DNA of 47,411 nucleotides from Eledone cirrhosa (GCA_964016885.1 CAXHJY010000983.1:1-47411), one strand, 5' to 3'. Positions 477 through 46,454 are shown, counted from the first letter of the stretch. Program-made: numbers and translations. Notes: generated from the letters alone by a model not told the origin.

Positions 477-3400
477 CCGCAGTAATCGTTCTGTAATCCT
501 CTCATTCTTATAGGACAGTGTTTTCACCGGAACTGTCACATCTAATCAGCTTTTCATAAATACTTCTTATTCCTGCGTGAACATCTGCTAAAGTTACAGT
601 TTTGTTTATATGCTCTGAAATAGAAGATTTCAATGTATTCGAATGTAGACATTTTATTTACTGACGTGCTCTCTCTCTATCTCTCTGTCACACACACACA
701 CACATATACACACGCGCGCACACACACACACGCTCATATATATACATATATATATATATATACACGTATTTGTATATATATAAGTTAAAACAATGAAATA
801 AAAAATCAAGTCATTAGAAATATACTTCACTGCTTTACGATCGTTTCTAGGTGATGATAATACATCGTAACTATACTTCGATATCGATCTATGTAAGGTT
901 AGTTACAAAATATCAGATAAACAGATTCTTTACTTACATGCATATCACCAGCTGTTGTCAAAAGCAACAATAATTTTATTCAAAATTAGTAGTAAATTAG
1001 TATTATGTTTACTTCTATGACCTTGTTTGGAGGTAGTTGAAGAACTAACCAATCAGATTGTTTTTTTGACTAACTGCCTGATGAGGCCATAGCCATTCAA
1101 TGGCTATCATCGAAATATATATAGCCGTAAATCAAGGATTATGAGTTCATGCAATTGACTTATGTTTCGTCAATATATATATAAATATATATCATCATCA
1201 TCATCATCATCGTTTAACGTCCCTGTTCCACGCTTGCATGGGTTTGGACGGGGGTTTTCCCACTTGAGGCAAGAGTGGTTGTCTTGCTCGCATAGGACTA
1301 TCTGGCGGGTTTTCTACAGCTGGATGCCCTTCCTAACACCAACCACATTTACAGTGTGGGACTGGGAGGTTTTTACCGTGTTGCCTACACGGTCACATTA
1401 CAGCGTGGACTGTGTGTTTTTTTGTCGTGACACCTACACGATCTCGTTTGTTTCGGCCTGGATGTTGTGGCACCAACATAACTTTGCATTGAAGGGGGCG
1501 GTGTGGATGGGGTGGGACGGGGGTGTATTTTGTTAGAGATGCCTACTGACTAGTAGGTTTTACTTTGTATTTAGGTGAGGCGGGTCTTCTCTGTTACACA
1601 TATATATATGTATATATATATATATATATGTATATAATTATGTGTATATATATATATATATATATGCATATATATAATTATGTATATATATATATATATA
1701 TATATATATATATATGCATATATATGTATATATATATATATATATCTATCTATATATATATATATATAAACATATATATAGGTGCATATATATATATACA
1801 TAAATATAGATATATTTATACATGACTTTGATAACTTTGATAAATAGGTAGGTTTCGGCCAATTTATGGCCAATGCTACGTCTACCTTAATAGCACCACC
1901 TGGCGAAGTCTTTCAAATCAGGCTTTGGACAGCATGGCCCGCTCAAGTAGAGAGTTATTATTTACCGAGATATGTCCTAGTGTAGGAGGTTTATCCGGGA
2001 TTTCTTGAAGGAATTGATCCAAAGACCTCTTCAACGTTGTGGGGTCCATTTCTCTTTTAATGTGTTTTGGTCTAATGTTAAAGAGAGCGGGGCCAATTGA
2101 GGTGAAATAATTGTGCCGTATTGTAGTAATGAGATACGAGTTTGACTTTTGTTGTGGTCGGATAGCACGGGGCCTAAGCCTTCGGTGTATGTTAAAGGTG
2201 ATGCCAACATCATTTGGGGAATACTGATGGAATATTTTCCACATTATGCAGATCGACGTGGGAGAGAATACATTTTGAGCTTTTCTAGTCAAAGGATTTG
2301 TGCTAGCGCTGTGAAATCTGACATGCATTAATTTCAACATTTCTTATGAATGACCGCATTGTTTATTTCAAGGGACTATATTGAAAAATATTTAGTAAAT
2401 CCACGAGAGTATCTTGGTCAGTCTATGAACTTCTCAGACTAAGAAAGATTAAGCTGTCCCTCGTGCTACTCGCCCAGTGTAACAATATCTCCTGAATGAA
2501 ATAAAAAGACTTGGTTCGGAATAAAAGTACAGAATATAAGAGAACATGGTTTTATATCGGAGTATTTTAGTGAGATTAATTAGATAGAAAACATGGAAAA
2601 TATACATACTGACATGACACAGGGAAGACTCTGAAATAAAAAAGAGGGCCAATGCGTGAGTTGTGGTTAATCAATGAGGTATTGTGTATGTGTATATGTG
2701 AGTATGGGTGTAAGTGTGAGCATTTACCAAACAATAGATTCATGGATGGATAGACGCACACACTCACATACAAACACATACCCAAATGCAGATACACAGA
2801 CAGTCAGGCAGACAGACGCATATACATACACTCTCATATATACATAAACATTTTTACATATATATATATATAAACGTTTGTATTTGTAAAGACAAAACAA
2901 TGCAGGTATGGATATAGAATATAAATGCAAATGCAAAAGATATTGTTGACAATTAGTCTTTTACCTTACATTTATTTAAATATCCTTAGTTTTCGATATA
3001 TATATATATATATATATATATATATATATATATATATATATATATGTATATATATATATATACAAATATATATATATATATATATATATATATATATGTA
3101 TATATATATATATGTATATATATATATATACAAATATATATATATATATATATGTATATATATATATATATATATATGTATATATATATGTATATATATA
3201 TATGTATATATATATATATACAAATATATATATATATACAAATATATATATATATATACAAATATATATATATATACAAATATATATATATATATACAAA
3301 TATATATATATATATACATATATATATATATATATAAATATATATATATATATTAATATATATGTATATATATATATATATATGTGTGTATATATATATA

Positions 3401-6400
3401 TATATATGTATATATATATGTATATATATATATATACATATATATATATGTGTATATATATATATATGTATATATATATATATATATACATATATATATA
3501 TATACATATATATATATATGTGTATATATATATATATGTATATATATATATATATATACATATATATATATATATGTGTATATATATATATATGTATATA
3601 TATATATATATATATATATATATATATACATATATATATATATATGTATATATATGTATATATATATATATATATACATATATATATATATGTATATATA
3701 TGTATATATATATATATATATATATATACATATATTTTTATATATATGTATATATATGTATATATATATATATATATATATATACATATATATATATATA
3801 TGTATGTATATGTATATATATATATATACATATGTATATATATGTACATATATATATATATATATATATATATACATATATATATATATATGTATATATA
3901 TATATATATGTATATATATATATATATATATGTATATATATATATATACATATATATATATATACATATATATATATATGTATATATATATATATATATA
4001 TATGTATATATATATATATACATATATATATATATATATATATATACATATATATATATATATGTATATATATATACACATATATATAGATATGTATATA
4101 TATGTATATATATATATATATATGTATATATATATATATACATATATATATATATATATATATACATATATATATATATATATGTATATATATATACATA
4201 TATATATAGATATGTATATATATGTATATATATATATATATATATATGTATATATATATATATACATATATATATATATATATATATATATATATACATA
4301 TATATATATATATGTATATATATATACATATATATATAGATATGTATATATATGTATATATATATATATATATATGTATATATATATATATACATATATA
4401 TATATATATATATATAGATATGTATATATATGTATATATATATATATATATATGTATATATATATATATACATATATATATATATATATATATATATATA
4501 TATATATACATATATATATATATGTATATATATATATATGTATATATATATATATACATATATATATATATATATATACATATATATATATATACATATA
4601 TATATATATATGTATATATATATATATATATATATATATATGTATATATATATGTATATATATATATATATACATATATATATATATATATATATATATA
4701 TATATATATGTATATATATGTATATATATATATATATATATATATGTATATATATGTATATATATATACATATATATATATATGTATATATATGTATATA
4801 TATATATACATATATATATATGTATATATATGTATATATATATATATATACATATATATATATGTATATATATGTATATATATATATATATACGTATATA
4901 TGTATATATATATATATATATACATATATATATATGTATATATATATATATATATATACATATATATATATACATATATATTTATATATATATATATATA
5001 TATGTATATATATACATATATATATATATATATATATATATATATATATATATATATATATATACATATATACATATATATATGTATATATATATATATA
5101 TATATATATATATATATACATATATATATGTATATATATGTATATATATATATATATACATATATACATATATATACATATATATGTATATATATGTGTA
5201 TATATATGTATATATATATATATATATACATATATACATATATATATGTATATATATGTGTATATATATGCATATATATATATATATATATATATATACA
5301 TATATACATATATATATGTATATATATATATATATATATGTATATATATGTATATATATATATATATACATATATATATATATATATGTATATATATGTA
5401 TATATACACATATATATATATATGTATATATGTATACATATATATATATGTATATATATATATGTATACATATATACATATATATATATATGTATATATG
5501 TATATATATATGTATATATGTATATATATATATATATATATATATATATATATATATATATATATATATATATATATATATATATGTATATATATGTATA
5601 TATATATATATATACATATATATATATATATATGTATATATATGTATATATACACATATATATATATATGTATATATGTATACATATGTATATATGTATA
5701 CATATATATATATGTATATATATATATGTATACATATATACATATATATGTATATATGTATATATATATGTATATATGTATATATATATATGTATACATG
5801 TATATATATATATATATATATATATATATATATATATATATATATATATACATATATATATATATGTATATATATATATATATATATATACATATATATA
5901 TATATGTATATATATATATATATATATATATATACATATATATATATATGTATATATATGTATATATACTTATATATATATATGTATATATGTATACATA
6001 TATATATATATATACATATATATGTATATATATGTATATATACTTATATATATATATATATGTATATATATATATTAAATATAATGGCCAGATACTATCA
6101 AATTCTTTTCTTATATCTGAATCAATTATCTTAAATTTATAAAGAAAAGCTTCAACACTTTTCTATATTAAAGAGGAATCTGGGTGTGAGTCATTATTTA
6201 GAAAAATATGGTTAGTTTTGGAATATCTGTTGATAGGAATGTATGTTGTTGATATTGGTTAGGGAGGGGAGGTGGTGGGGGATCATGCTAGCTCACATAT
6301 TTACTTCCCTACAAGTAAATATACATACAGTCCATATATTCTAGTTCATACATAGCTATATATTTACACATGCACATGCACTCACACATATATACTTATA

Positions 6401-6671
6401 TATACATATATATGCACAAACACACACTCCCACACACATATATAAGATGCATCCATATATACATACACCCACACACCTAGGATTTCACATATTTTCCAAT
6501 ATATAAATATATATATACACATACTTACACACACACACATATATATATATATATATATATATATATATATATATATATATATGTATATGTATATATATAT
6601 ATATATATATCCATACTACTGGGTTACTCACCAATGAAGAGAAGGGTGAGAAACCACGCAGCTTTCATCAT
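477..6671 (-). CDS. Paralogue A (3' part outside window): exons 6671-6632 ([13 protein letters not shown]), 2491-2474 (GDIVTL), 614-477 ([31 protein letters not shown][K][14 protein letters not shown]); apparent 1-nt deletion in exon 3
   Basis: Canonical acceptors; donors gtgagt, gcgagt, gtatat. Exon 3 is 138 nt where 139 is needed; adding one base to the T-run at 521-524 restores C-x7-CP-x10-C. Either a pseudogene or a homopolymer error. Confidence 0.75.
1073..1128 (+). ncRNA. Minimal type-I hammerhead-ribozyme-like motif
   Basis: actgc-CTGATGA-g..atagccatt c aatggctat..c-GAAA-tatat-ATA-gccgt. Confidence 0.5.
1190..1450 (-). mobile_element. Retroposon 3' end with (GAT)n tail (RTE-type tail, tentative)
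   Basis: (tca)n followed by tcgtttaacgtcc ... ctggatgcccttcctaa; GC-richer than flanks. Confidence 0.5.
1825..2290 (-). mobile_element. Decayed 3' end of a CR1/L2-like LINE (intron 2 of copy A)
   Basis: ORF 1918-2340 carries GPALFN...[16 protein letters not shown]...NNSL, typical of CR1-group ORF2 C-termini; same remnant at 16220 and 27940. Confidence 0.75.
2996..6075. repeat. ~3.1-kb (TA)n microsatellite with TG/CA interruptions (intron 1 of copy A)
   Basis: Direct reading. Confidence 0.98.
6076..6400 (-). mobile_element. Repeat fragment (possibly a Penelope-like thumb remnant) in intron 1, shared with copy D (45480-45800)
   Basis: Near-identical sequence at both sites; family assignment weak. 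Confidence 0.45.
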
Positions 6672-45974: not shown

Positions 45975-46203
45975 TGATGTCTACGTTAAATTTAACTCTA
46001 CAATATGTAATAGTCCCTTTTGGAAGTTCATCTTAAATACTTTACTCCATTGTGCCAGATGTTTGTCCACGTTAAAACAATATATTTATTGTACATATAT
46101 TGTGATGTTTTAGTGACATATTTTGACGTTTTAACTGATTTACGTTGCTTTGTTTTCTGATATATTTTCATAAAATATAATTTATAGATATTTTATCGAA
46201 TTT
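45975..46203 (-). promoter_or_regulatory. Copy D core promoter/5' UTR, TATTTAA at 46039-46033
   Basis: Homologous to the upstream block of A, B and C. Confidence 0.55.
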
Positions 46204-46394
46204 AGCCCGCAGGCTTGCAATGCAGAGAAGAACCGTCTAGAGGTTTGGTGGGTGTCTACAATCTGGAGAGGACCTGAAATGTCTTTAGAACTTTTTACAT
46301 TAGGTGTGGCAAACTTTAGCAAAACAAGTATTTCGGATTCTGACAAAAGTGAGAACATAAGACTGATTTCAGTGAGAGGAACAAATATCTTTAT

Positions 46395-46454
46395 TTACAT
46401 AAGCGTGAGTGTTATAACAGCAGCTGCAGTGAGAACTATTGAAGACATCTTGAC
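46395..46454 (-). CDS. Paralogue E terminal exon [19 protein letters not shown] (rest of gene beyond right edge)
   Basis: ttcacttacag acceptor; the same intron-5 landmarks (LINE remnant, conserved block) lie at 46515-47411. Confidence 0.8.
   Translation of the reverse strand, partial: VKMSSIVLTAAAVITLTLM

What the first reader, a model, noticed from the sequence alone, without database searches (positions are those of the whole stretch)
477..46454. Hidden tandem array of micro-exon genes encoding small GPI-anchored-like six-cysteine proteins
Seen in sequence: five head-to-tail minus-strand paralogues, each made of six tiny exons (40/18/~112-139/88/24-27/60 nt) scattered among microsatellites and invisible in the ORF track. 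Copy C splices into an uninterrupted 114-aa ORF with compatible phases. Inference: signal peptide ([20 protein letters not shown]), ~65-aa Cys-stabilised and probably helical domain, small-residue omega region (GGS) and hydrophobic tail with no cytoplasmic residues, i.e. a GPI-anchored surface protein. I do not recognise the family. It lacks the Ly6/uPAR CCxxxxCN motif. The array runs off both window edges, so it may be a larger lineage-specific expansion.
Basis: partly seen in the sequence, partly recalled or inferred. Interest (0 to 1): 0.92.

Follow-up and report, generated by a model that had tools for sequence, protein, structure and literature searches.

The report
Fast-evolving cephalopod surface-protein gene array
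This is part of a cluster of about two dozen small cephalopod genes for membrane-tethered proteins whose outer domain keeps six fixed cysteines but changes faster than its own introns, a pattern typical of recognition molecules in an evolutionary arms race.

Summary
The array is real and larger than reported, but the gene model needs one correction. The window is a whole unplaced contig of a 3.0-Gb cephalopod (octopod-like) genome. It joins an array on chromosome C22 (24.58-24.91 Mb), giving at least 23-24 minus-strand gene units. The true exon 2 is 21 nt long, lies 140 nt upstream, and has AG/GT in 23 of 23 copies. Copy C is then 115 aa. Of 20 modelled copies, 19 give open 101-116-aa proteins: signal peptide, a C-x7-C-x10/12-C-x8-C-x7-C-x11-C domain, a small-residue omega region and a hydrophobic tail. 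The Cys domain averages 33% amino-acid identity, its exons are more divergent than flanking introns, and a site model gives omega 3.6 at 45% of sites. In the window only C, and perhaps B, is intact. Single-exon searches found no homologue in Pfam, PDB or large protein sets; these are weak negatives. There is no RNA evidence and no fold model. Best reading: a lineage-restricted, GPI-anchored recognition family under diversifying selection, most likely at a host-microbe interface.

The parts
32367..32406 (-). Copy C exon 1 (40 nt): start and hydrophobic core of the signal peptide
   Evidence: GTAAGT donor
30810..30830 (-).
   Evidence: AG/GT in 23 of 23 copies
30673..30690 (-).
26149..26260 (-). 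Copy C exon 3 (112 nt, phase 1-2): variable N-terminal arm and Cys1-Cys3
25447..25534 (-). Copy C exon 4 (88 nt, phase 2-0): Cys4-Cys6, helix-like periodicity
24820..24846 (-). Copy C exon 5 (27 nt, phase 0-0): small-residue omega region
23313..23372 (-). Copy C exon 6 (60 nt): spacer, hydrophobic tail and stop; an AATAAA overlaps the stop
21652..21691 (-). Copy B exon 1
17952..17972 (-). Copy B true exon 2 (21 nt)
15610..15700 (-). Copy B exon 3 from an alternative in-frame acceptor; the acceptor used by relatives (about 15721) reads CG
14482..14569 (-). Copy B exon 4
11448..11550 (-). Copy B: two tandem exon-5 copies (11550-11524, 27 nt; 11471-11448, 24 nt), both AG/GT and in frame
9781..9840 (-). 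Copy B exon 6
7235..7288 (-). Extra, shorter exon-6 duplicate downstream of copy B
6632..6671 (-). Copy A exon 1
2610..2630 (-). Copy A true exon 2
477..615 (-). Copy A exon 3, frameshifted as assembled (between Cys1 and Cys2); exons 4-6 lie beyond the contig end
45935..45974 (-). Copy D exon 1 (same place as C22:24685312)
38671..38758 (-). Copy D exon 4, sixth Cys lost; no exon 2 or 3 found upstream
37344..37369 (-). Copy D exon 5, 26 nt (out of frame)
35892..35951 (-). Copy D exon 6
46395..46454 (-). Copy E exon 6, the last exon of an intact 109-aa gene whose other exons lie on C22 (24704551-24687077)

Best explanation
Each intact gene makes a 101-116-aa precursor. A 20-residue signal peptide (exons 1-2) sends it into the ER. 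The C-terminal signal (exons 5-6) is swapped for a GPI anchor at a small residue about 25 from the end. What remains on the outer membrane is a 55-72-residue module held by three disulfides, probably helical (exons 3-4). The six cysteines and a few aromatic core positions are fixed, while the surface residues and the N-terminal arm are free and driven apart by selection, so the paralogues present many different binding faces on one scaffold. The array grows by tandem duplication and loses copies by frameshift, splice-site or exon loss (birth and death). The most likely partners are microbial or parasite molecules met at an epithelial or blood-cell surface, with the proteins acting as receptors, co-receptors or shed decoys. 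SHOWN: gene structure, copy number, open frames, Cys frame, tail geometry, excess amino-acid change. INFERRED: expression, signal cleavage, GPI attachment, helical fold and disulfides (about 0.85 together). MOST SPECULATIVE: that the partner is microbial (about 0.4-0.45 given the rest).
For: At least 23 units by exon 1 plus one orphan exon 6, all on one strand, found only on C22:24.583-24.912 Mb and on this contig. 19 of 20 modelled copies are open. Six Cys at fixed spacing occur in 19 of 19 open copies, and mean identity over Cys1-Cys6 is 33% against 67-68% for signal and tail. Mean nucleotide identity is 0.59 in exons 3 and 4, 0.69-0.85 in neighbouring intron and UTR segments, and 0.85-0.87 in exons 1 and 6. 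Site model on 51 codons of 18 copies: M2a beats M1a by 2dL 60.6, with omega 3.6 at 45% of sites and about 0 at 13%. Close pairs differ almost only by amino-acid changes: non-synonymous to synonymous 6:0, 5:0, 17:1 and 17.5:1.5. GPI-type tail geometry. Broken copies sit among intact ones. That many co-existing, diverging paralogues with frequent loss point to defence genes is general knowledge, not tested here.
Against: No transcript, protein or tissue evidence. The role is inferred from the mode of evolution, which pheromone, gamete and venom families share. The one-ratio omega of the domain is 1.09, not different from 1 (p 0.14). Pooled Nei-Gojobori dN/dS is 1.38 for the exon-3 core but 0.60 for exon 4, and one close pair (c06/c07) has pN equal to pS. 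The site test is my own implementation on a fixed tree. Gene conversion can inflate it: exon 2 is identical in c17, c18 and c19 although c16, not c19, is sister to c17/c18. The signal-plus-tail partition also passed more weakly (2dL 10.9). No SignalP or GPI predictor was available.
Confidence: 0.4

Rival explanations
1. Reproductive recognition: GPI-anchored sperm, egg or oviduct surface proteins, working like Bouncer/SPACA4, diversified by sexual selection or conflict.
For: Same architecture and selection signal. PMC8904931 (passages) describes small disulfide proteins recruited to gametes, Bouncer as a species-specificity factor, and rapid evolution by positive selection. PMC6794433 (abstract start) notes multiple mating and fast evolution of male traits in benthic octopuses.
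Against: Well-known gamete-recognition genes are usually one or a few copies per genome (recalled), whereas here about two dozen paralogues diverge within one genome. No expression data.
Confidence: 0.22
2. Chemical identity or pheromone tags on skin or mucus, released from the anchor by a phospholipase and read by chemosensory cells (individual, kin or self recognition).
For: The pattern matches the salamander pheromone PMF as described in PMC8904931 (passage): more than 30 proteins at about 30% mean identity with unusually conserved untranslated regions. Here identity is 33% with conserved flanks. One copy (c05) has lost the hydrophobic tail and could be secreted.
Against: 18 of 19 open copies keep the anchor signal, which a freely released pheromone does not need. 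No skin or mucus data.
Confidence: 0.15
3. Neural or sensory accessory proteins: GPI-anchored modulators of receptors or a neuronal surface code, working like neuritin/CPG15 or lynx prototoxins, perhaps a distant neuritin/DUF19-type helical fold.
For: Small GPI-type protein with six Cys. The Cys3-x8-Cys4-x7-Cys5 stretch with aromatic residues recalls neuritin and DUF19 (recalled from memory, no call supports it). Helix-like periodicity.
Against: PF15056 (NRN1) and PF01579 (DUF19) searches of this genome did not hit the array (weak, exon by exon, and the DUF19 control rang nowhere). No exon hit these families in Pfam. Neuritins are conserved and low-copy (recalled); 33% identity among recent paralogues fits poorly.
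Confidence: 0.12
4. Secreted effectors (antimicrobial or salivary peptides) in which the C-terminal stretch is a pro-piece cut off at the basic residues, not a GPI signal.
For: A conserved signal peptide with a hypervariable mature region on a fixed Cys frame is the pattern of molluscan toxin and antimicrobial peptide families (recalled). Basic residues precede the tail.
Against: The tail is an uncharged hydrophobic run to the very end, at the usual omega distance, in most copies. There is no R-x-x-R motif in the common R-D-R form. No toxin or antimicrobial family was hit.
Confidence: 0.08
5. A decaying or unexpressed duplicated segment whose exon-like pieces are not genes.
For: No RNA support was obtained, and 2 of the 5 window units (A, D) are broken as assembled and a third (B) has a damaged acceptor.
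Against: 0 of 20 copies have a stop in the used frame against 20 of 20 in the other frames, despite 41% nucleotide divergence; Cys codons and splice sites are fixed.
Confidence: 0.03

Closest known systems
Ly6/uPAR (three-finger) clusters, including Bouncer/SPACA4 and lynx
   Same: Small GPI-anchored disulfide domain, tandem multigene clusters, fast evolution, recognition or modulator roles (general knowledge; Bouncer from PMC8904931 passages).
   Different: Six Cys rather than 8-10, no CCxxxxCN end, helix-like rather than beta periodicity, no Pfam hit.
Neuritin/CPG15 (PF15056) and DUF19 (PF01579)
   Same: Recalled as small helical six-Cys domains; neuritin is GPI-anchored; the central x8 and x7 spacings look alike (recalled, untested).
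   Different: Outer spacings are much shorter here, no profile hit was found, and this family is a hypervariable array of about 24 copies.
Plethodontid modulating factor (salamander pheromone family)
   Same: Many paralogues at about 30% identity, coding sequence far more variable than non-coding flanks, positive selection (PMC8904931 passages).
   Different: PMF is a secreted three-finger protein; this family has another Cys frame and an anchor signal.
Cephalopod taxon-restricted arrays (reflectins, suckerins, histidine-rich beak proteins)
   Same: Tandem clusters of lineage-specific genes. PMC9068888 (passages) also mentions further squid arrays with no similarity to known proteins, listed in its Supplementary Table 4.
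   Different: The named families are structural or optical proteins; 'GPI' and 'cysteine' do not occur in that paper's main text. I could not open that supplement, so an overlap with those unnamed arrays is not excluded.
Schistosome micro-exon genes (MEGs)
   Same: Short secreted or surface proteins from tiny exons; exons 2 and 5 here are symmetrical (phases 1-1 and 0-0).
   Different: The variable domain sits in two asymmetrical exons (1-2, 2-0) that cannot be skipped singly; diversity comes from duplication and substitution, not exon skipping.

Membership tests
Ly6/uPAR | 8-10 Cys LU domain ending in CCxxxxCN | tested here: not met
   Six conserved Cys with spacing 7, 10-12, 8, 7, 11 in 19 of 19 open copies; no such motif
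Ly6/uPAR | Pfam LU-domain match | tested here: not met
   0 of 22 exon-4 and 0 of 19 exon-3 peptides hit an LU family at E<=1; single exons only
Ly6/uPAR | Three-finger beta fold | not testable with these tools
   No structure model; periodicity favours helix
Neuritin (PF15056) | Profile match to NRN1 | tested here: inconclusive
   No hit in the array; only an E 2.0 hit elsewhere; exon-wise search is insensitive
Neuritin (PF15056) | Signal peptide, six Cys, GPI signal | tested here: met
   Architecture met; the neuritin side is recalled
DUF19 (PF01579) | Profile match | tested here: inconclusive
   0 hits in the genome and 0 of 14 controls
Neuritin / DUF19 | Helical-bundle fold and disulfide pairing | not testable with these tools
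   No full-length fold model or fold search was obtained
GPI-anchored proteins | N-terminal signal peptide | tested here: met
   Basic start, hydrophobic core and small-residue end over exons 1-2 in the aligned copies; judged by eye, no predictor
GPI-anchored proteins | Small omega residues, spacer, terminal hydrophobic run with no cytoplasmic tail | tested here: met
   18 of 19 open copies
GPI-anchored proteins | Anchor actually attached (PI-PLC release) | not testable with these tools
   Bench test
Micro-exon genes (MEG type) | Variable region built from many symmetrical, skippable micro-exons | tested here: not met
   Only exons 2 and 5 are symmetrical; the domain exons have phases 1-2 and 2-0

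The most novel reading that the evidence does not exclude
An undescribed octopod-restricted family with its own three-disulfide helical scaffold that forms a polymorphic, MHC- or KIR-like surface identity locus. Its copy content differs between haplotypes: this contig would then be an alternative haplotype carrying copies absent from the C22 version. It would supply the molecular code for self/non-self recognition in octopus skin, blood cells or gametes.
Probability: 0.15. Interest if true: 0.92.

Novelty: new variant of a known kind. Interest (0 to 1): 0.72.

Why it matters
Cephalopods have few named candidates for immune, gamete or individual recognition at the cell surface. This is a single locus with about two dozen anchored, hypervariable, positively selected paralogues that ORF-based annotation misses because no coding exon exceeds about 140 nt. 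With the corrected exon map, mapping existing octopus RNA-seq to five junctions would assign the family to a tissue at once, and so make the recognition question directly testable. If the fold is unlike Ly6 and neuritin, it is an independent invention of the Ly6 strategy on another scaffold.

Tried and rejected
RNA. No RNA holder was listed. The three runs found behave as DNA contigs (cover across introns, no splice joints among the joints shown) and may be the source sample. This is no evidence on expression.

HOMOLOGY, all with single-exon queries and without a positive control, so weak negatives. Word-seeded protein search: 0 of 1108 (exon 4), 0 of 3519 (exon 6) and 0 of 7119 (exon 3) candidates at E<=10, proteins over 73-77 aa only. 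HMMER over 1.84 billion representatives with the 29-position exon-4 profile: 2 hits, a repeat protein and a 508-aa protein, neither with the Cys frame or architecture, both rejected. PDB sequences: best E 0.25 and 0.96. Pfam: isolated hits at E 0.04-0.09 in 1 member each. ESM Atlas: best 0.82 to unnamed short clusters, and no usable hit. Rfam: 0. Earlier scan findings: none in 4 look-ups.

INTERNAL DUPLICATION of exon 3 and exon 4 (both C-x7-C-x11-C): hhalign probability 0.4%, E 0.15, not supported.

NEIGHBOURS. No further copies in 100 kb on either side (C22:24.46-25.06 Mb). The ORFs listed there looked like transposon remnants or chance frames by eye, so synteny gave nothing.

OTHER. A random-substitution control was out of frame and is disregarded. 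No fold model was obtained.

LITERATURE. Ten full-text searches on octopus or cephalopod with GPI, tandem, hypervariable, orphan and related terms listed no paper whose title or abstract start describes such a family. I saw only listings and abstract starts, plus passages of PMC9068888 and PMC8904931. The 2015 octopus genome paper was not held, and the large supplements of PMC9068888 could not be read.
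Full report
SOURCE. The window is the whole contig C1010 of a 2,996-Mb animal genome in 1,796 contigs. It is about 29% GC and full of dinucleotide arrays. The genome holds molluscan haemocyanin genes with seven functional-unit matches per gene. The unit tested scores best against single units of Octopus and squid haemocyanin: 141 bits for 1js8 and 134 for unit 8 of 6r83, against at most about 101 for the single units of the other entries shown (the species behind the entry codes, and that seven units mark octopods, are recalled). 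The host is therefore a cephalopod, probably an octopod.

OBSERVATION. A masked self-comparison shows repeated blocks in five head-to-tail units, and exon profiles place them all on the minus strand. Copy C has exons at 32406-32367, 30830-30810, 26260-26149, 25534-25447, 24846-24820 and 23372-23313, intron phases 1,1,2,0,0, and an open frame of 115 codons. The other window units are incomplete or damaged. B has all exons but an exon-3 acceptor reading CG, rescued only if a weak in-frame AG 21 nt downstream is used. A ends at the contig edge after a frameshifted exon 3. D has no exon 2 or 3, no sixth Cys and a 26-nt exon 5. E is a lone exon 6.

CORRECTION OF EXON 2. Among 19 copies holding that stretch, 6 have both sites, and the stretch is missing from 4 further copies. 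Aligning the surrounding intron showed a 21-nt segment 140 nt upstream with a pyrimidine tract, AG and GT in 23 of 23 copies. It encodes a typical signal-peptide end, with leucine-cysteine and a small residue in most copies. An unbiased scan of three reference genes for conserved acceptor-donor pairs found this exon in all three and exon 5 where expected, and no conserved donor for the 18-nt stretch (exon 4 paired in one of the three and exon 3, whose start varies, in none). Because 18 nt keeps the frame, occasional extra inclusion in the six GC copies is not excluded.

SIZE OF THE ARRAY. DNA searches with exons 1, 2, 4 and 6 hit only this contig and C22:24.58-24.91 Mb (the exon-6 search scored 30 of 30 candidates and may be capped). 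In 400 kb fetched there are 20 genes by exon 1 plus an orphan exon 6 beside an assembly gap. No copy lies in the next 100 kb on either side. Window 44,577-47,411 equals C22:24,683,909-24,686,750 at 99.2%, beside a gap at 24,679,016, whereas window 1-39,500 has no such match. Copy E is thus the end of a C22 gene, D shares its exon 1 with C22, and C, B and A are additional, for 23 units plus the orphan. Whether C1010 fills the gap or is a second haplotype is open; its left end does not overlap the left side of the gap.

THE PROTEINS. I modelled 20 copies: window C and B and 18 on C22. Left out as incomplete were A, D, C22 unit c03, the half-gene left of the gap and the orphan exon. Nineteen are open, 101-116 aa; one is frameshifted in exon 1. 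All 19 have six Cys spaced 7, 10-12, 8, 7, 11, four of them with one extra Cys inside the frame. Identity over Cys1-Cys6 averages 33% (18-92%), against 67-68% for signal and tail. The tail has an omega-like small triplet 21-26 residues from the end in 18 of 19 copies and ends in a hydrophobic run in 18 of 19; one copy has lost the run through a frameshift. Mean hydrophobicity along the exon-4 segment has its strongest period at 105-110 degrees (20.2, against at most 10.8 at 160-180 degrees), which suits helices. No structure model was obtained.

SELECTION. Exons 3 and 4 average 0.59 nucleotide identity over 171 pairs, below every intron or UTR segment measured (0.69-0.85) and below exons 1 and 6 (0.87, 0.85). 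Yet the frame is stop-free in 20 of 20 copies while both other frames are blocked in 20 of 20. Close pairs differ mainly by amino-acid changes (6:0, 5:0, 17:1, 16:1, 17.5:1.5; one pair at 17.5:3.5 is neutral per site; three of these pairs share members). A site model on 18 copies gives 2dL 60.6 for M2a over M1a, with omega 3.6 at 45% of sites. Against this, one-ratio omega is 1.09, pooled dN/dS for exon 4 is 0.60, the test is my own code on a fixed tree, and gene conversion is likely. The exon-below-intron result does not depend on the model.

HOMOLOGUES. None was found in Pfam, PDB sequences, the ESM Atlas, three word-seeded searches or a full HMMER scan of 1.84 billion representatives. Every query was a single exon of 19-37 informative residues and there was no positive control, so distant relatives, and even orthologues in other octopods, could be missed. 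A likeness of the central Cys spacing to neuritin and DUF19 is recalled, not shown; the two family searches did not touch the array.

HOW IT PROBABLY WORKS. The conserved exons handle trafficking: entry to the ER and GPI transfer. The two variable exons give a small disulfide-locked scaffold whose surface is rewritten copy by copy. Having no cytoplasmic part, the proteins cannot signal alone, so they would bind ligands as co-receptors, adhesion tags or shed decoys. Many diverging paralogues in one genome, with frequent loss, fit a host-microbe arms race best (0.40). Gamete recognition (0.22), pheromone or self tags (0.15), neural modulators (0.12) and secreted effectors (0.08) remain open. Only expression data can separate them, and none was available.

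COMPARISON AND VERDICT. The family works like a Ly6/uPAR cluster (small, anchored, tandem, fast) and evolves like the salamander pheromone PMF (PMC8904931, passages read), but it fails the Ly6 cysteine test and is not filed under any family. PMC9068888 (passages) reports unnamed squid gene arrays without homologues in a supplement I could not read, so prior listing of a relative is possible. Ten literature searches listed no description of this family. Verdict: a real, probably undescribed, lineage-restricted family; a new variant of a known kind; interest 0.72.

Noticed in passing
window:39535-47411 and G000:C22:24679216-24686750: The contig overlaps chromosome C22 (99.2% over its last 2.8 kb) right beside an assembly gap, while its left 39 kb is absent from C22: an unplaced gap piece or a haplotype with other copy content. 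Copy D's exon 1 starts ATG-CTG here but ATG-ATG on C22.
   Followed up: partly
window:11448-11550; also C22 near 24865680, 24846445, 24804329, 24708813 and 24673399: Exon 5 (omega linker) is tandemly duplicated in several copies, sometimes with both versions spliceable and in frame; it could give alternative linker lengths or anchor sites.
   Followed up: no
window:7235-7288; C22 near 24752385, 24650125, 24648266, 24634373 and 24615871: Extra exon-6 duplicates lie downstream of several genes; they could be alternative last exons or duplication debris.
   Followed up: no
window:28100-29700 (-): Decayed LINE-like reverse-transcriptase remnant with an internal duplication (28479-28858 / 28894-29271) in intron 2 of copy C; class judged by eye.
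   Followed up: no
window:25595-25774, 30420-30640, 17566-17770, 2293-2430: Remnants of a very high-copy short repeat with inverted-repeat-like ends (summed contig depth about 180,000), shared by the introns of several copies and so older than the duplications.
   Followed up: no
window:2996-6083, 40230-44179, 26361-27939: AT-type microsatellite arrays of 1.5-4 kb inside introns; the largest lies where copy D lacks exons 2-3 and next to the C22 gap.
   Followed up: no
window:25439-25528: In all three laid runs a contig matches both flanks of exon 4 but not the exon itself, as expected for a paralogue with a much-changed exon between conserved introns.
   Followed up: no
G000:C1:173.74-173.91 Mb, C26:21.93-22.02 Mb, C27:61-67 kb: Several haemocyanin genes with seven units each on two chromosomes, plus two isolated units on C27.
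   Followed up: partly
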